Both the position numbers and the translations under genes were made by a program. This document shows positions 1-57,678 of a stretch of 64,000 nucleotides of DNA, piece after piece; positions within the stretch are counted from its first letter, which is position 1, and each line of letters begins with the position of its first letter. The stretch comes from an uncultured Bacilli bacterium (lineage in GTDB: Bacteria; Bacillota_I; Bacilli_A; RF39; UBA660): positions 266 to 64,265 of the forward strand of contig CANRFG010000004.1 in assembly GCA_947629815.1 (NCBI GenBank), in the 5' to 3' direction. The notes under the pieces are model-generated. The model made no database searches. It worked only from the letters and a program-made list of their open reading frames with translations, and was not told the DNA's origin.

Positions 1-99
1 AGAAATTCTACTATATTTTGGTCAAATAGATTAAAATTTTCTGTTTTTATGCTATAATATTTAACGAAACAAATATTAATTAGAAAGTTGGGCAATATT

Positions 100-1179
100 A
101 TGAAAATCAATTGTGATGGTATTGTGCATAATCCGCTTGGAGGGGCTTCGTATATGTTTGAAAAAGAAATAATACCATATATTTTAAAACAATATACAAA
201 AAATATAATTAAAATTAGTGTTGGTGCACAGCCTAATTCTTCACCACATTTTGGTACTTTAGAAACAATAGCACTATCTTTTGGACTGGCATCAAATATT
301 ATGAAATATGATAAAAACAAGAAAGTTATAATTTTATACGAAGTAATTGATTCAGCTCCAAGTGAAACATCAATAATTAATGAAATAAAATATCAAAAAA
401 GTCTAAAATATACGGGAAAAATAAATGAATTTTTCAATGAATATTTAGAAATTTTAAATTATTATAAGAATTTAACCGGTATTGATTATGAAATAAGGTA
501 TCAGAAAGAATTTAATAGCCAACCTGAAATATCTAACATTATTAAAAAGATTATTGAAAATAAAGAATATATCAGTTCAAGACTTGATCCAAAATATAAT
601 AAAATCAGAATTAGAATGTCTTGCCCAAAATGTGGATTAACTGATAAGAATAGTATTTTAAACAAATATGAAAATAACAAAATAATATTTAATTGTCCTA
701 TACATGGCGAGTATTATGCAGATTTAAACAAAGATACATCAATGTTAGAATACAATTCGCCATATAGAAATTTAATTAGATGCATTTATTATACTTTAGT
801 TAATAATAATTCTAATTACGATTATCAAATTATTAGAGTTACGGGAAGTGACTATGCAGGATTTTATCAAGAAGAAATGAGATATAAACTTGCTTCTTAT
901 TTAGGTTATCCAGCACATACGTTATCAATGATATTTTATGCTCCACTTATATTAGATTGGTCTGGTGCTAAAATGTCTAAATCGTTATATGTTAAAGAAG
1001 GTGCTTATTCAGATATTCCTACTGCATTTATTAATTATAAATATTTAAAACAGGAATATGGATTAAATGGTTTAAAAAAATTATATGATATTGTTTCTAA
1101 TTGGTTTGAAAATCCTTATATGCTTTTTAGGCATTATACAATTTATTATTTTATTAAGGAGTTTGAAGAAAATGAATAA
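100..1179 (+). CDS. Class I aminoacyl-tRNA synthetase catalytic-domain paralog (LysRS-I/GluRS-like Rossmann core) lacking an anticodon-binding domain
   Basis: N-terminal HIGH-like signature PNSSPHFGTLETIALSFG and C-terminal SGAKMSKSLYV (KMSKS). CxxC...CxxH knuckle (CPKCG...CPIHG) as in class I CP insertions. Only ~60 aa follow KMSKS. TTG at 88 is an alternative start; ATG at 100 preceded by GGG. Confidence 0.55.
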   Translation: MKINCDGIVHNPLGGASYMFEKEIIPYILKQYTKNIIKISVGAQPNSSPHFGTLETIALSFGLASNIMKYDKNKKVIILYEVIDSAPSETSIINEIKYQKSLKYTGKINEFFNEYLEILNYYKNLTGIDYEIRYQKEFNSQPEISNIIKKIIENKEYISSRLDPKYNKIRIRMSCPKCGLTDKNSILNKYENNKIIFNCPIHGEYYADLNKDTSMLEYNSPYRNLIRCIYYTLVNNNSNYDYQIIRVTGSDYAGFYQEEMRYKLASYLGYPAHTLSMIFYAPLILDWSGAKMSKSLYVKEGAYSDIPTAFINYKYLKQEYGLNGLKKLYDIVSNWFENPYMLFRHYTIYYFIKEFEENE

Positions 1180-1588
1180 TGCAATTTTTGTCAGTATTAA
1201 TCCTATAGCAGCAGATAAAATTGAAAAAGGAATAAAGACATATGAATTTAGAAATTATATTTCCAAAAAAGAGTTTAATAAACTTTATGTATATGTTACT
1301 ACTCCCATTTGTGAATTAAAATATATAATGGAGATAACCGATATAATTAGCACTCCTCAAAAAATAGAAATTGAAGGAGATGGCAATAAACTTTTTAATG
1401 AAGGAAAAAAATCAAAATACGCATATAAAATTGATAAAGTTTATAAGCTAACTCATCCTATAAAACTATCTACTTTAAGAGAGAAATTTTATTTCACTCC
1501 ACCACAAAGTTATGCATATGAAACAAGATATCAAGAACTATCTGTTTTTTTGGAAAGAAGTGACAAGAAATTAATATGGAAAAGATAA
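1172..1588 (+). CDS. ASCH-domain protein (PUA-like beta-barrel)
   Basis: GxKxxExR ASCH signature (EKGIKTYEFR). ATG at 1172 with AAGGAG RBS. ORF-track start at 1085 lies inside the upstream gene and is not supported. Confidence 0.6.
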   Translation: MNNAIFVSINPIAADKIEKGIKTYEFRNYISKKEFNKLYVYVTTPICELKYIMEITDIISTPQKIEIEGDGNKLFNEGKKSKYAYKIDKVYKLTHPIKLSTLREKFYFTPPQSYAYETRYQELSVFLERSDKKLIWKR

Positions 1589-2277
1589 TAAATTTAGATA
1601 TAAATGATCAAGCATTTAAAGCCATAAAAAATGGTATCAAAAAAGTAGAAATAAGAGTTACTACTAATAAAAAAAAGAAAGATTATGGTAATATTAATTC
1701 AGGAGATATAATTATTTTTTCAAATTCTAAAAATGAAAGATTAAGATGTAAAGTAATAGAAAACATATGGTATAAAAATGAAAAGGAATTATTAATGGTT
1801 GAAGGGACAAAATATACCTTATCATCTACAAATGATTTCCAAATAGGTGTCAAATCAATTAATTCGTTTAAAAATTATACTCAGGGAATAAAAGAAAACG
1901 GCATATATGCAATTCACATTAAATGTATAGAAGTTAATAATTTTGATATGAAGTTAAAAAAAGAATATTATAATTCTGTCATCAATGGAACTAAAAGAAT
2001 AGAATTAAGATTAAATGACGAAAAAAGGCAAAAAATAAAAATAAATGATACAATAACATTTCATTTATTTGATGATTATAATAAATTTTTTACAGTTAAA
2101 GTTGTTGGATTGTCTTACTATAAATCAATACGAGATTTAATAAATGATTATAAAATAGAAAATTTAATTTCCAATAATATTACATCAGAAGAATTAATTA
2201 ATATTTTTAATAGTATTTATAAATTAGAAGATCAAGAAAAGTATGGTATTTTAGGTATCAGTTTCGTTATTATTTAA
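1576..2277 (+). CDS. Tandem double ASCH-domain protein
   Basis: Two GxKxxExR motifs (NGIKKVEIR and NGTKRIELR). Start overlaps upstream gene by 13 nt, suggesting coupling. Confidence 0.6.
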   Translation: MEKIINLDINDQAFKAIKNGIKKVEIRVTTNKKKKDYGNINSGDIIIFSNSKNERLRCKVIENIWYKNEKELLMVEGTKYTLSSTNDFQIGVKSINSFKNYTQGIKENGIYAIHIKCIEVNNFDMKLKKEYYNSVINGTKRIELRLNDEKRQKIKINDTITFHLFDDYNKFFTVKVVGLSYYKSIRDLINDYKIENLISNNITSEELINIFNSIYKLEDQEKYGILGISFVII

Positions 2278-2434
2278 TTTTAAGACAAATTTGTTTTAAT
2301 AATTTATATGAATAAATTTACTAAATGTAAAATATGTAACATAATTATATTAGTTGGTAGTTATTACTACTTGATTATTGGCATAAGAAAAGTTATTCGA
2401 CTTCTTCTCTATATACTCCAATTTTGTTTATAAC

Positions 2435-2463
2435 TTGCACAAACATTAATTTTATGGTATTAT
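2435..2463 (+). promoter_or_regulatory. sigma-A-like promoter, unit 1 (TTGCAC-17nt-TGg-TATTAT)
   Basis: Near-consensus -35, 17-nt spacer, extended -10. Same architecture conserved in unit 2. Confidence 0.45.
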
Positions 2464-2469
2464 GTATTT

Positions 2470-2584
2470 GGCAAGAGAAATTGCATAAAATAAAAAGGGA
2501 ACGTTCAGTTTTTGCGAGTTGAATGTCTACCCAAAAAATTAGTTCGACATTTAATTCTTATGAATTAAGTGTCATTTCTTTATT
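2470..2584 (+). ncRNA. Candidate ~110-nt sRNA (putative type I antitoxin RNA), copy 1
   Basis: Bounded by the promoter at 2435-2463 and the intrinsic terminator at 2546-2584. No conserved ORF. Internal hairpin gggaacgttca/tgaatgtctaccc. Confidence 0.4.
2546..2584. terminator. Bidirectional intrinsic terminator shared by convergent sRNA and peptide ORF (copy 1)
   Basis: Stem gacatttaattc/gaattaagtgtc with loop ttatg. T-run follows on the + strand and an A-run precedes it (T-run on the - strand). Confidence 0.5.
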
Positions 2585-2664
2585 ACTACTATCATAATGA
2601 TAAGGAGAAATAAAATGATAGTAATGAACTTTAGAACTTTTATTGTAAAAGTCTTAGTTTTCAC
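2572..2664 (-). CDS. 30-aa hydrophobic KK-terminated peptide, type I toxin-like (MKTKTFTIKVLKFITIILFLLIIMIVVIKK)
   Basis: GTG start 8 nt downstream of GAGGAGG, which lies in the perfectly conserved block. Stop abuts the terminator. Paralog in unit 2 has identical length and conservative or synonymous substitutions only. Confidence 0.5.
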   Translation of the reverse strand: MKTKTFTIKVLKFITIILFLLIIMIVVIKK

Positions 2665-2895
2665 TATATCAAACCTCCTCTCTGTAAGAGATTTGGTAGA
2701 CACTCAACAACTGATATTCCCTATATGAATTATATATCGTATATAATTATAAAACAAGCGAACAGACTACAAAATGAAATAAAATTTTTAAAAATATTCT
2801 ATAATTATATTAGTTAGTAGCTATTACTACTTGACTTATTGGTATAAGATTAGTCATTTGACTTTTTCTCTATATATTTTAATTTTGTTTATAAT

Positions 2896-2924
2896 TTGCA
2901 TAAATACTAATTTTATGATATTAT
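2896..2924 (+). promoter_or_regulatory. sigma-A-like promoter, unit 2 (TTGCAT-17nt-TGa-TATTAT)
   Basis: Positional homolog of the 2435-2463 promoter. Confidence 0.45.
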
Positions 2925-2930
2925 GAATAT

Positions 2931-3044
2931 GTCAAGGAAACTTGAATAAAATAAAAAGGGAACATTCAGTTTTTGCAAGTTGAATGTCTACCCAAAATAA
3001 ATTTGTTTAGGCACTTATTCTAGCGAATGAGTGTCATTTTTTTA
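2931..3044 (+). ncRNA. Candidate ~110-nt sRNA (putative type I antitoxin RNA), copy 2
   Basis: Promoter at 2896-2924, terminator at 3012-3044. Homologous to copy 1 with compensatory stem changes. Confidence 0.4.
3012..3044. terminator. Bidirectional intrinsic terminator (copy 2)
   Basis: Stem cacttattc/gaatgagtg (includes one G-U pair), loop tagc, T7 run. Stem sequence differs from copy 1 but pairing is preserved. Confidence 0.5.
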
Positions 3045-3126
3045 TTACTATAACCATTATGATTAGGAGTAGTAAAATGATAGAAATAAGCCTTAGAATT
3101 TTTATAATAAAAATCCTTTTCTTCAT
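3034..3126 (-). CDS. 30-aa hydrophobic KK-terminated peptide, type I toxin-like (MKKRIFIIKILRLISIILLLLIIMVIVIKK)
   Basis: ATG start 8 nt after GAGGAGG. 93 nt with no indels relative to copy 1. 16 differing codons, of which 4 are synonymous and most of the rest conservative. Confidence 0.5.
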   Translation of the reverse strand: MKKRIFIIKILRLISIILLLLIIMVIVIKK

Positions 3127-3380
3127 TTATATCAAACCTCCTCTCTGTAAGAGATTTGGTAGACACTCAACAACTGATATTCCCTATACAAATTATATAT
3201 TATATATAATTATAAAACAAGCGAACAACTATAAAAATATAACAAAATTATTAATTAAATATAGATTAGTTATATAATTTTTTATTTTTAACTACAATTT
3301 ATTTATACAAATTATTGAATATTATTAGGTCTTTTTTTTTGTAAAAAAAAATTGTATAATTATCTATATGGAGGTAAATT

Positions 3381-4637
3381 ATGGTTAGAGGAGTAAAATT
3401 ACCTAAATTTAAATCAATTTCAAAAAATAAAAGAATAGGTTTTTATAATAAACCAAACTTTGTTTATATACCATTAATAAGTGGAAATGATGAAGACATT
3501 ACTATAACAGTAAAAAAAGGTGACTATGTTTATAAAGGTAGTGTAATTGGAAGAAGAAAAGGAAACTTCAAAATACCTATAAATTCAAGTATAAGTGGAA
3601 CAGTAATAGACTATGTTCAAAAAACTTATTCAAATGGAAAAAAAGTAAAATGTGTAGTAATAGAAAATGATTTCAAAGAAAAAGAAGAAATAAAAAAAGT
3701 AGTAAACAAAAAAATAAATGAATATACAAAAGAAGAATTTATAAAAACAATAAAAGATTGTGGAGTAGTAGGAATGGGTAGTGGTTATCCAACTTACTTA
3801 AAATACGAAACAGAAAATAAAATAAATACTTTAATAATTAATTGTACAGAATGCAGTTCATATGTAACAAGCGATTATGTTTTATTAGTAGAGAGATGTG
3901 AAGAAATACTAGAAACAATTGATGCAATGCTTGAAATAAACGAAATAGATAAAGCACTAATAGCAGTTAGAAAAAATGATTTAGAACTTTTAAACATTTT
4001 AAATTCATTCATAGGAACATATTTAAAAATCAAAATTGTAACAGTTCCTGATATATATCCAATAGGTTGGGAAAGAAATTTGGTAAAATATATTTTAGGA
4101 ATTAACTATAATGAAATGCCTATTGAAAAAGGAGTAGTTGTAAACAATGTTTCAACAATATATGCAATATATGAATCATTAAAATATAATAAACCTTTAT
4201 GCGAAAGAATAATAACATTTACAGGAGATGGAATAAAAAAACCACAAAATGTTTATGTAAAAATAGGAACTCCATTAATAGAAATAGTAAATAAAATAGG
4301 AAAGACAACAAGTAATATAAATATGATTGTTGGAGAACCAATGATGGGAAAATATATAGAAGACATAGAAGATGTTATCGCAACAACGGATACATCATGT
4401 GTAATTATTTTAAAAGAATTACAACAAAATAAAGAAACAGAATGTATAAGATGTGGACAATGTACAAAAAATTGCCCTGTGAAAATATCACCTGTTCTTA
4501 TAAAAGATAATCAAAACAATAAAGAAAAACTAAAACAATTAAATATTGATAAATGTATTCACTGTGGACTTTGTTCATATATATGCCCTGCAAAAATAGA
4601 TTTAAGAAGTATTATAGAAAAGGTGGGTGATAAATAA
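3381..4637 (+). CDS. rnfC: Electron transport complex subunit RnfC
   Basis: N-terminal RnfC_N barrel-sandwich. GMGSGYPT matches the RnfC GGAGFPT motif. Two C-terminal 4Fe-4S motifs (CIRCGQCTKNCP and CIHCGLCSYICP). Confidence 0.8.
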   Translation: MVRGVKLPKFKSISKNKRIGFYNKPNFVYIPLISGNDEDITITVKKGDYVYKGSVIGRRKGNFKIPINSSISGTVIDYVQKTYSNGKKVKCVVIENDFKEKEEIKKVVNKKINEYTKEEFIKTIKDCGVVGMGSGYPTYLKYETENKINTLIINCTECSSYVTSDYVLLVERCEEILETIDAMLEINEIDKALIAVRKNDLELLNILNSFIGTYLKIKIVTVPDIYPIGWERNLVKYILGINYNEMPIEKGVVVNNVSTIYAIYESLKYNKPLCERIITFTGDGIKKPQNVYVKIGTPLIEIVNKIGKTTSNINMIVGEPMMGKYIEDIEDVIATTDTSCVIILKELQQNKETECIRCGQCTKNCPVKISPVLIKDNQNNKEKLKQLNIDKCIHCGLCSYICPAKIDLRSIIEKVGDK

Positions 4638-57425: not shown

Positions 57426-57489
57426 ACCTTGAAATAAAATTAGTTTATGATATAATACTTAATAGTTAAAAGTTATGACGAAAAAGTAG

Positions 57490-57678
57490 TAATAAAATAA
57501 GTTATTTAAAGAGAGCTAGTGTAGGTGTGAATCTAGTAATAACATTTTATGAATTCATTTTCTGAACTTTATAATGCAAAGTTATAACGGTAACGCGTTT
57601 TAGTTAATGAGGTAGTATAATCTACGAATTAAGGTGGTACCACGTAATCACGTCCTTATAATAGGATGTGATTTTTTT
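57490..57678 (+). promoter_or_regulatory. T-box riboswitch leader for pheST
   Basis: T-box sequence aattaaggtggtaccacg (57627-57644). Terminator atcacgtcc-ttataata-ggatgtgat plus T6. Upstream extended -10 TGaTATAAT. Confidence 0.75.

What the first reader, a model, noticed from the sequence alone, without database searches (positions are those of the whole stretch)
2341..3245. Tandem pair of unannotated type I toxin-antitoxin-like modules (convergent sRNA plus 30-aa KK-terminated hydrophobic peptide)
Two ~460-bp units repeat in tandem. Each shows three linked elements:
(i) On the + strand, a near-consensus sigma-A promoter (TTGCAC/TTGCAT-17-TGn-TATTAT) lies about 110 nt upstream of an intrinsic terminator. 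This makes a small non-coding transcript.
(ii) The terminator stems differ in sequence between copies (gacatttaattc:gaattaagtgtc versus cacttattc:gaatgagtg) but keep perfect pairing. That is RNA-level covariation. A- and T-runs flank the hairpin, so it is bidirectional.
(iii) On the - strand, GAGGAGG sits inside a 59-nt block that is 100% identical between units. It is followed at 8 nt by GTG (2664) or ATG (3126) and a 30-codon ORF ending exactly at the shared terminator.
The two peptides are MKTKTFTIKVLKFITIILFLLIIMIVVIKK and MKKRIFIIKILRLISIILLLLIIMVIVIKK. They differ at 16 codons with no indels; 4 differences are synonymous and most of the rest are conservative (K/R, V/I, F/L, T/S). That is a signature of purifying selection on a basic-hydrophobic-KK membrane peptide.
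Convergent transcription with 3' overlap at a bidirectional terminator is the architecture of Fst/TxpA/BsrG-class type I TA systems. A ucucu-uac-agaga hairpin abuts the SD and could sequester it.
The ORF track instead shows only a spurious + strand ORF (3059-3277). Its reading frame is not conserved across the identical block.
Basis: seen in the sequence. Interest (0 to 1): 0.8.

Follow-up and report, generated by a model that had tools for sequence, protein, structure and literature searches.

The report
New type I toxin-antitoxin-like family

Summary
Two tandem ~460-bp units (core 2426-2778 and 2891-3239) each carry a minus-strand 30-codon ORF behind GAGGAGG and a plus-strand ~113-nt RNA gene with its own promoter and terminator.

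A genome scan and an independent metagenome scan found about 270 further copies, mostly in uncultured gut Bacilli/'Tenericutes' assemblies. They sit between unrelated housekeeping genes and are often in tandem arrays of 2-4.

- **Peptide ORF:** intact in 105/112 and 72/77 distinct copies. The plus-strand ORF that gene callers annotate is not conserved.
the hairpin is not a shared bidirectional terminator. The mRNA most likely runs on to a second conserved hairpin plus U-run, so the sRNA is antisense to about 95 nt of the mRNA 3' end.
- **New feature:** the mRNA 5' end pairs with that 3' region in a ~27-bp long-range helix, next to a sequestered Shine-Dalgarno sequence. All 112 copies fold this way, with 29 covarying arm combinations and a G·U strand bias.

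This matches bsrG/SR4 of Bacillus subtilis in design. No Rfam, Pfam, NCBIfam or protein-database match exists.

Verdict: a new family of a known kind. Toxicity and transcription remain untested.

The parts
2435..2463 (+). Unit 1 sRNA promoter: TTGCAC, 17 nt, TGn-TATTAT
   Evidence: Read. The family consensus TTGACA-17-TGnTATTAT is conserved at 60-99% per position.
2470..2582 (+). Unit 1 predicted antisense sRNA (~113 nt): 5' hairpin 2471-2484, hairpin 2, linker, terminator hairpin 1 and U-run. Ends are inferred.
   Evidence: MFE -29 kcal/mol, z = -4.05. The terminator scan found 2 sites against 0.1 expected.
2497..2532 (.). Unit 1 hairpin 2. On the minus strand it is followed by UUUUUAUUUU (2484-2496), making it the likely mRNA terminator. 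It is also the 3' arm of the long-range helix and part of the sRNA.
   Evidence: 94% of cells paired, 6/10 pairs compensatory. The U-run is 91-97% conserved.
2533..2545 (.). Unit 1 linker. It is single-stranded in both predicted RNAs and is the most variable segment. Proposed cognate-recognition seed.
   Evidence: 38-45% identity against 80-97% for its neighbours. Unpaired.
2546..2573 (+). Unit 1 hairpin 1, the sRNA terminator. It overlaps the peptide stop codon. The Lys-Lys codons supply its U-run.
   Evidence: 10/11 pairs compensatory. The G·U bias favours the plus strand (63 vs 16).
2572..2664 (-). Unit 1 peptide ORF with GTG start: MKTKTFTIKVLKFITIILFLLIIMIVVIKK, then TGA
   Evidence: GRAVY 1.66, net charge +6.
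2602..2608 (-). Unit 1 internal anti-SD UCUCCUU (Leu-Leu codons). Its complement is the false RBS of the spurious plus-strand ORF.
   Evidence: Nearly invariant at synonymous sites. It pairs with the SD in closed CCUC-type mRNAs.
2674..2694 (-). Unit 1 SD GAGGAGG (2674-2680) with the upstream anti-SD AAAUCUCUU (2686-2694) in a hairpin
   Evidence: SD unpaired probability 0.02.
2695..2721 (-). Unit 1 5' arm of the long-range helix: GGGAAUAUCAGUUGUUGAGUGUCUACC
   Evidence: (z = -7.6).
2729..2757 (-). Unit 1 mRNA promoter: TTGTTT (2752-2757), 17 nt, TATAAT (2729-2734). TSS about 2722.
   Evidence: Read. TTG and TATAAT are ≥90% conserved.
2488..2722 (-). Unit 1 predicted toxin mRNA (~235 nt). Ends are inferred.
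   Evidence: MFE -71.4 kcal/mol, z = -7.56.
2896..2924 (+). Unit 2 sRNA promoter: TTGCAT, 17 nt, TGn-TATTAT
2931..3045 (+). Unit 2 predicted antisense sRNA, with hairpin 2 at 2958-2993 and terminator hairpin 1 at 3010-3035
3034..3126 (-). Unit 2 peptide ORF with ATG start: MKKRIFIIKILRLISIILLLLIIMVIVIKK, then TGA
3137..3184 (-). Unit 2 SD (3137-3143), anti-SD, and 5' arm of the long-range helix (3158-3184)
   Evidence: z = -7.41. Lies in the identical block.
3192..3220 (-). Unit 2 mRNA promoter: TTGTTT (3215-3220), 17 nt, TATAAT (3192-3197). TSS about 3185. The mRNA runs to about 2949.

Best explanation

**The mRNA.** The minus strand gives a ~235-nt mRNA for a 30-residue peptide. The peptide has a basic N-terminus, one hydrophobic helix and a C-terminal KK, and is the presumed membrane toxin. 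The mRNA is born locked in two ways.
- Its first ~27 nt pair with the hairpin-2 region just before the 3' U-run, so both ends are buried in a long helix.
- Its Shine-Dalgarno sequence is held in an adjoining hairpin by an upstream anti-SD. A second anti-SD lies inside the ORF.

**The sRNA.** The plus strand gives a ~113-nt sRNA from a near-consensus extended -10 promoter. It ends at hairpin 1, whose U-run is encoded by the peptide's Lys-Lys codons. The sRNA is fully complementary to the last ~95 nt of the mRNA. Its hairpin 2 has nearly the same sequence as the mRNA 5' end, so the two compete for the same mRNA 3' arm.

**Proposed action (inferred).**
1. Pairing starts at the variable single-stranded linker and the hairpin-1 loop. 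These differ between paralogues and keep tandem copies specific.
2. Pairing spreads into hairpin 2 and ejects the mRNA 5' end.
3. The resulting duplex is a substrate for RNase III, as for txpA/RatA and bsrG/SR4.
4. In family members whose anti-SD (ACCUCU) overlaps the 5' arm, ejection should also tighten SD sequestration. In the window's two copies the SD is sequestered either way, so decay is the more likely route.

**Shown versus inferred.** Shown here: the sequence anatomy, ORF conservation, promoter conservation, covariation and strand bias. Inferred: the transcripts, their ends, toxicity and the role of RNases.
For: **ORF**
- Intact in 105/112 distinct genome copies and 72/77 distinct metagenome copies.
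- Third codon positions vary most. pN/pS is 0.49, the lowest of the six frames.

**Promoters**
- Both are conserved family-wide.

**Hairpin 1**
- 10/11 pairs are compensatory.
- Its wobble pairs fit the plus strand (63 vs 16).

**Long-range helix**
- z = -7.6 and -7.4 for the two window mRNAs.
- RNAalifold predicts it independently.
- 99% and 90% of cells are paired in its two parts, with 15/26 pairs compensatory.
- G·U outnumbers A·C 233 to 62, which fits folding on the mRNA strand.
- It is present in the MFE structure of 112/112 copies, against 13/112 with a shuffled 5' end.
- A set retrieved without using either arm has 29 distinct arm combinations, nearly all 13-14/14 paired.

**SD sequestration**
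- SD unpaired probability is 0.02 in both window copies.
- In CCUC-type members it falls from 0.14 to 0.009 when the 3' region is masked (52/53 copies).

**Recognition region**
- The linker and hairpin 1 are the least conserved segments.
- Cognate and non-cognate duplex energies are -158 and -106 kcal/mol.

**Distribution**
- Tandem arrays occur in 27 loci.
- Flanking genes are unrelated: 358 flanking ORFs fall into 307 clusters.
- About a third of copies lie at contig ends.

**Precedent**
- In bsrG mRNA, helix P1 between nt 1-35 and 232-262 is opened by SR4 binding, with RNase III cleavage (PMC3834814, PMC6562991).
- SD/anti-SD pairing and 5'-3' long-distance interactions are hallmarks of type I toxin mRNAs (PMC8594479).
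Against: - There is no expression data for either strand and no toxicity test.
- The peptide matches no toxin family.
- For the window's own 5' UTR type, masking the 3' region does not increase SD sequestration in silico.
- The simple terminator scan did not call hairpin 2 on the minus strand, because its stem has an internal loop.
- The antisense frame also has a lowish pN/pS (0.56), so the codon statistics alone are not decisive.
- The genome set was retrieved with a pattern that fixed the 5' arm. This is mitigated by secondary copies and by the independent metagenome set.
Confidence: 0.7

Rival explanations
1. It is a real peptide-plus-antisense module, but the peptide is a benign small membrane protein (a regulator or structural component) whose level is tuned by the antisense RNA. 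It is not a toxin-antitoxin system.
For: - All the sequence-level evidence for the ORF and the sRNA fits this reading equally well.
- No toxin-family match was found.
Against: - The module is multi-copy and forms tandem arrays that mix subfamilies.
- Flanking genes are unrelated.
- Decayed copies and copies reduced to the sRNA part exist.
- The mRNA is heavily locked against translation.
- These are traits of selfish type I loci, not of housekeeping small proteins.
Confidence: 0.17
2. Only the peptide gene is functional. The plus-strand 'sRNA' is not made, and hairpins 1 and 2 serve only as mRNA 3' structure and terminators.
For: - There is no direct transcript evidence.
- Promoter-like hexamers are common in 24% GC DNA: 11 found against 11.2 expected.
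Against: - TTGACA-17-TGnTATTAT is conserved at a fixed position across the family.
- Hairpin 1 is followed by a U-run only on the plus strand.
- Its wobble pairs fit the plus strand (63 vs 16).
- sRNA-only partial copies persist next to full copies.
Confidence: 0.07
3. It is a non-coding structured repeat or miniature mobile element bounded by inverted repeats, and the short ORF is incidental.
For: - An inverted repeat (2497-2532 vs 2695-2721) flanks the ORF.
- Copies are scattered and often lie at contig ends.
Against: - The ORF is intact, with fixed length, start, SD and stop, in more than 90% of copies.
- Conservation extends beyond the repeats into both promoters.
- The repeat tolerates G·U on one strand only, which points to RNA-level rather than DNA-level selection.
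- No match was found in plasmid, phage or viral collections.
Confidence: 0.04
4. The plus-strand ORF (2597-2728 and 3059-3277) that gene callers annotate is the real gene.
For: - It has GGAG 8 nt before an ATG.
- It is open in 73/85 copies.
- It is called as a 66-aa gene on the source contigs.
Against: - Its frame differs between the two window units.
- Across the family it shifts with the 7-11-nt SD-start spacing of the opposite strand.
- It stops after 4 codons in the MKKREYNIKLL subfamily.
- It lies directly downstream of the sRNA terminator.
- Its 'RBS' is the complement of the internal anti-SD.
Confidence: 0.02

Closest known systems
bsrG/SR4 (Bacillus subtilis SPβ prophage; PMC3834814, PMC6562991)
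   Same: - Convergent genes with a long 3' overlap.
- A small hydrophobic peptide ending in lysines.
- The mRNA 5' end pairs with a 3' segment complementary to the antitoxin (helix P1), and antitoxin binding opens it.
- The SD sits in a short helix.
- The recognition route (terminator loop, then the single-stranded stretch next to it) matches the loop and linker proposed here.
   Different: - No sequence similarity in peptide or RNA.
- Here the 3' arm of the long helix is the mRNA terminator hairpin itself, not a segment upstream of it.
- The sRNA hairpin is a near copy of the mRNA 5' end.
- The peptide is 30 aa rather than 38 aa.
- The module is chromosomal, multi-copy and tandem, with no prophage context seen.
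- SD-helix extension is predicted only for one 5' UTR subtype, not for the window's.
txpA/RatA (Bacillus subtilis skin element)
   Same: - 3'-overlapping antisense RNA.
- SD in a helix that antitoxin binding does not change.
- Control by RNase III-dependent decay. This is the route I favour for the window's two copies.
   Different: - TxpA is 59 aa and unrelated.
- There is no Rfam match to RatA.
- I know of no description of a comparable 5'-3' helix that mimics the antitoxin; this rests on my own knowledge.
hok/Sok and aapA1/IsoA1 (Gram-negative; PMC8594479, PMC6733600)
   Same: - The full-length toxin mRNA is closed by a 5'-3' long-distance interaction.
- Anti-SD sequences include ones embedded in the ORF.
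   Different: - Their antisense RNAs overlap the 5' part of the mRNA, not the 3' end.
- Activation by 3' trimming is known there and only speculative here.
- The peptides are unrelated.
fst/RNAII (par of pAD1, Enterococcus faecalis)
   Same: - Convergent transcription in a Firmicute.
- A ~30-aa hydrophobic peptide.
- A sequestered SD.
   Different: - par overlaps only at a shared bidirectional terminator and relies on 5' direct repeats for pairing.
- Here the repeat is inverted, so it acts within one molecule.
- No sRNA-5' UTR pairing beyond chance.
- No Fst Pfam match.

Membership tests
Type I toxin-antitoxin systems (generic kind) | Small (<60 aa) hydrophobic, membrane-type peptide ORF | tested here: met
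   30 aa, GRAVY 1.66-1.93, hydrophobic core of ~16-20 residues, net charge +6/+7. Conserved in more than 90% of ~190 distinct copies.
Type I toxin-antitoxin systems (generic kind) | Cis-encoded antisense RNA with its own promoter and terminator, complementary to the toxin mRNA | tested here: met
   Met at sequence level only. The promoter is conserved. The terminator shows covariation and plus-strand wobble bias. Transcription was not observed.
Type I toxin-antitoxin systems (generic kind) | Toxin mRNA structure that blocks translation (SD/anti-SD pairing, 5'-3' long-distance interaction) | tested here: met
   The hallmarks are as listed in PMC8594479.
Type I toxin-antitoxin systems (generic kind) | Peptide is toxic when expressed, and the RNA neutralises it | not testable with these tools
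   Needs inducible expression with and without the sRNA.
bsrG/SR4 | Homology to the BsrG peptide or SR4 RNA | tested here: not met
   No Rfam family reaches E ≤ 10 on 1500-4500, either strand. No Pfam, NCBIfam or PHROG match.
bsrG/SR4 | 5'-3' helix whose 3' strand lies in the region complementary to the antitoxin | tested here: met
   compared with PMC3834814.
bsrG/SR4 | Antitoxin binding extends the helix that sequesters the SD | tested here: inconclusive
   In silico it holds for CCUC-type members (52/53) and fails for the window's CCAA-type.
fst/RNAII (par) | Fst-family toxin (Pfam Fst_toxin) | tested here: not met
   No hit at E ≤ 10.
fst/RNAII (par) | Overlap limited to a bidirectional terminator, plus complementary 5' repeats | tested here: not met
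   The conserved minus-strand U-run follows hairpin 2, not hairpin 1. sRNA versus mRNA 5' duplex energy is no better than shuffles (69/200 and 40/200).
txpA/RatA | TxpA-family toxin or RatA RNA homology | tested here: not met
txpA/RatA | RNase III-dependent decay of the 3' duplex | not testable with these tools
   About 95 nt of perfect complementarity is available (inferred transcript ends).
hok/Sok | Hok peptide, and an antisense RNA against the 5' leader (mok) | tested here: not met
   No Pfam hit. The antisense gene lies at the 3' end.

The most novel reading that the evidence does not exclude
The antitoxin is a structural mimic of the toxin mRNA's own 5' end. Three partners compete for one mRNA 3' arm: the local terminator arm, the mRNA 5' end and the sRNA. 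sRNA binding would switch the mRNA from a doubly end-protected, stable, silent form to an open form that is degraded or, in one subtype, re-locked at the SD. The hypervariable hairpin-1 and linker segment would act as an address that keeps tandem paralogues from cross-talking. The family would then be a naturally diversified set of orthogonal RNA switches. It would also be spreading between gut species with no recognisable vehicle.
Probability: 0.35. Interest if true: 0.6.

Novelty: new member of a known kind. Interest (0 to 1): 0.55.

Why it matters
- It adds a large, well-defined family of candidate type I toxin-antitoxin modules to a lineage with no cultured models: AT-rich uncultured gut Bacilli/'Tenericutes'. 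Such loci are invisible to annotation there. The peptides are absent from a 15-billion-protein collection, and gene callers annotate a false ORF on the wrong strand.
- With about 270 natural variants, the family gives an unusually rich covariation record of a toxin mRNA's long-range fold and of its antisense recognition region. That record could guide experiments on how 3'-overlapping antitoxins act.
- It could also guide the design of orthogonal RNA regulators.
- A practical point: these repeats break assemblies and seed mis-annotations in gut MAGs.

Tried and rejected
- **Rfam:** no family at E ≤ 10 on the region. Only a T-box elsewhere in the window.
- **Peptide family searches:** Pfam, NCBIfam and PHROGs gave only chance transmembrane hits or nothing.
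- **Protein databases:** Exact look-up of 8 peptide variants found none. The 43-aa extended ORF found one unnamed 63-aa protein.
- **Mobile-element collections:** the viral contig pattern scan gave 0 hits. PLSDB plasmids and INPHARED phages gave no match.
- **Synteny:** the ASCH and RnfC neighbours are not kept (1 weak hit). There is no recurrent neighbouring gene.
- **Fst/SprA1-style pairing:** trans pairing of the sRNA with the mRNA 5' region is not better than shuffles.
- **SD opening or closing on sRNA binding:** not supported in silico for the window's 5' UTR type.
- **Literature:** a peptide motif search found no paper. The held, truncated supplements of the human-microbiome small-protein survey contained no family member.
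- **Taxonomy:** the look-up of a named host was uninformative.
- **Plus-strand ORF:** considered and rejected.
Full report
**What is there**

The window is 22-30% GC and chromosomal. The region lies between an ASCH-domain gene (1576-2277) and rnfC (3381-4637). Long intact ORFs under table 11 show that TGA is a stop codon here.

Two units repeat head to tail with a 460-463-bp period. Identity is uneven along the unit:
- 100% over 61 nt (2665-2725 = 3128-3188);
- 79% over the ORF;
- almost none in one hairpin stem.

Minor corrections are given in the observation check. No Rfam family matches the region.

**It is a large family**

A scan of one genome per species used CCTCCTC-N(8-22)-GGTAGACAYTCAAC. 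Almost all were uncultured gut or rumen MAGs titled Bacilli, Tenericutes or Firmicutes, plus Clostridium sp. CAG:594 and Candidatus Ventrenecus.

A profile built from these loci finds 152 copies and delimits a ~350-bp conserved core. The core corresponds to 2426-2778 and 2891-3239 in the window.

A second, independent scan of metagenome contigs was keyed on the U-run and sRNA 5' region instead. It gave 118 loci and 123 copies.

Distribution of the copies:
- 27 loci hold 2-4 copies in the same orientation, often of different peptide subfamilies.
- Flanking genes are unrelated housekeeping genes. The 358 flanking ORFs fall into 307 clusters, and the largest cluster has 6 members.
- About a third of copies abut contig ends, as expected for a multi-copy repeat.
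- Nothing similar is in plasmid, phage or viral collections.

**Which strand codes**

After the SD, a 25-33-codon ORF is intact in 105/112 distinct genome copies, and 85 of these are exactly 30 codons. It is also intact in 72/77 distinct metagenome copies.

Typical peptides are MKTKTFIIKVLKLIAIILFLLIIMIVVIKK, MKKREYNIKLLRYISLILLLLTLLVLVIKK and a 27-aa MSKKDFLISILL...LK type.

Diversity by codon position is 0.27/0.18/0.36, and pN/pS is 0.49, the lowest of the six frames.

The plus-strand ORF fails for four reasons:
- Its frame differs between the two window units.
- It shifts with the 7-11-nt SD-start spacing of the opposite strand.
- It is cut after four codons in one subfamily.
- It sits just downstream of a terminator.

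Its apparent RBS is the complement of a conserved UCUCCUU inside the peptide ORF. That element pairs with the SD in many family members, so it is an internal anti-SD. This explains why gene callers annotate a 66-aa plus-strand ORF on the source contigs. The true peptides are absent from a 15-billion-sequence collection.

**Two convergent transcription units, staggered terminators**

On the peptide strand the family consensus reads, in order:
1. TTGttt, 17 nt, TATAAT
2. about 7 nt, then AGGGAAUAUCAGUUGUUGAGUGUCUACC
3. anti-SD
4. GAGAGGAGG
5. ATG and 30 codons
6. TGA, overlapping hairpin 1
7. a variable linker
8. GGGUAGACAUUCAAC-loop-CUGAAUGUUCCC (hairpin 2)
9. UUUUUUAUUUU

Beyond that lies the reverse complement of TTGACA-17-TGnTATTAT.

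Hairpin 1 is followed by a U-run only on the plus strand, and that U-run is encoded by the Lys-Lys codons. Hairpin 2 is followed by a U-run only on the minus strand.

Wobble pairs give independent evidence of strand:
- In hairpin 1 they fit the plus strand (63 vs 16).
- In the long-range helix they fit the minus strand (233 vs 62).

So hairpin 1 is the sRNA terminator, not a bidirectional one. The mRNA most likely reads through it to hairpin 2. The ~113-nt sRNA is then antisense to about 95 nt of the mRNA 3' end. Transcript ends are inferred, not observed.

**The long-range helix**

Folding the full predicted mRNAs gives -71.4 and -70.3 kcal/mol, with z = -7.6 and -7.4. The first ~27 nt pair with the hairpin-2 region, ending GGG:CCC right at the U-run.

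Supporting results:
- RNAalifold recovers this helix on its own.
- Pair counts show 99% and 90% pairing in its two parts. Compensatory changes occur at 15 of 26 pairs, including positions that are unpaired in the local hairpin.
- All 112 sequences form the helix in their MFE structure, with a median of 27 bp. Only 13/112 do so after shuffling the 5' end.

The first set had one arm fixed by the search pattern, so I repeated the test on the metagenome set. It contains 29 distinct arm combinations, and nearly all are 13-14/14 paired despite up to 6 changes per arm. Examples are GTTGAGTACTTGCC/GGCGAGTACTCAAC and TCCGAGTGTCTACC/GGTAGACATTCGGC.

The mRNA 5' end is in effect the sRNA's hairpin 2 with the loop removed, which can be read directly from the sequence. 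The sRNA and the mRNA 5' end therefore compete for the same 3' arm.

**Translation control**

The SD is predicted to be paired in both window copies (unpaired probability 0.02).

Masking the 3' overlap serves as a proxy for sRNA binding. The result depends on the 5' UTR subtype:
- **CCUC-type members:** SD accessibility drops from 0.14 to 0.009 (52/53 copies). Here the anti-SD ACCUCU shares bases with the 5' arm.
- **The window's CCAA-type:** masking does not reduce SD accessibility, because the anti-SD AAAUCUCUU is separate from the 5' arm.

For the window I therefore favour sRNA-triggered decay, with a constitutively locked SD.

**Specificity**

The linker and hairpin 1 are the only parts of the overlap that are not tied up in the long helix. 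They are by far the least conserved segments, at 38-45% and 60-66% identity against 80-97% for their neighbours. The linker is single-stranded in both predicted RNAs.

Cognate and cross-unit duplex energies are -158 and -106 kcal/mol. I infer that this segment is the recognition address that keeps paralogues apart.

**Comparison with known systems**

The design matches the Gram-positive 3'-overlap class (PMC8594479, PMC6562991) and most closely bsrG/SR4. In bsrG mRNA, nt 1-35 pair with nt 232-262 in helix P1. SR4 binding makes nt 1-33 single-stranded and remodels the SD hairpin (PMC3834814).

- Membership in the bsrG, txpA, fst or hok families fails on sequence.
- The fst-type mechanism through 5' repeats fails a direct test.

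It is therefore a new family of a known kind.

**Limits**

There are no transcript or toxicity data. Promoter and terminator calls are consensus-based, in very AT-rich DNA. Folding energies are predictions.

My statement that the hosts are RF39-like rests on record titles and memory, not on a test.

Noticed in passing
window 57466-57660 (+): T-box leader (Rfam RF00230, 94 bits against a gathering score of 93). It is the only Rfam family above threshold in the 64-kb window.
   Followed up: no
L009 1212-1409 and 3305-3545, insertion 1410-3304: One family copy is split in the middle of its ORF region by a 1.9-kb insertion. The insertion encodes a 604-aa ISL3-family transposase with DDE_Tnp_ISL3 and Zn_ribbon_ISL3 domains.
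   Followed up: partly
L015 4973-5142; L055 4956-5104; L117 4394-4527: Partial copies that keep only hairpin 1, hairpin 2 and the sRNA promoter lie next to full copies. They have no 5' UTR or ORF. They may be orphan antitoxin genes or decay remnants.
   Followed up: no
window 2602-2608 and 3064-3070 (minus strand): The Leu-Leu codons CUC CUU (CUC CUA in unit 2) are nearly invariant at synonymous sites across the family. They act as an internal anti-SD in predicted folds of many members. Their complement creates the false GGAG RBS of the plus-strand ORF. The neighbouring invariant UCAUUUUA remains unexplained.
   Followed up: partly
L028, L087, L099, L015, L021 and the window: Tandem arrays usually combine different peptide subfamilies (MKTKTF..., MKKR..., MxKKDFL...) rather than recent identical duplicates.
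   Followed up: no
L001, L022, L074: Three copies are on contigs binned as Muribaculaceae (Bacteroidota) MAGs, each within ~125 nt of a contig end. These contigs are probably mis-binned rather than evidence that Bacteroidota carry the family.
   Followed up: no
window 88-1179 (+): A 363-aa ORF has HIGH-like (PHFGT) and KMSKS motifs reminiscent of class I aminoacyl-tRNA synthetases. It has no Pfam match at E ≤ 0.001.
   Followed up: no
L120 2697-2897; window 3077-3277 (+): Public gene calls on the source metagenome contigs annotate a 66-aa plus-strand ORF across unit 2 and miss the conserved minus-strand peptide.
   Followed up: yes
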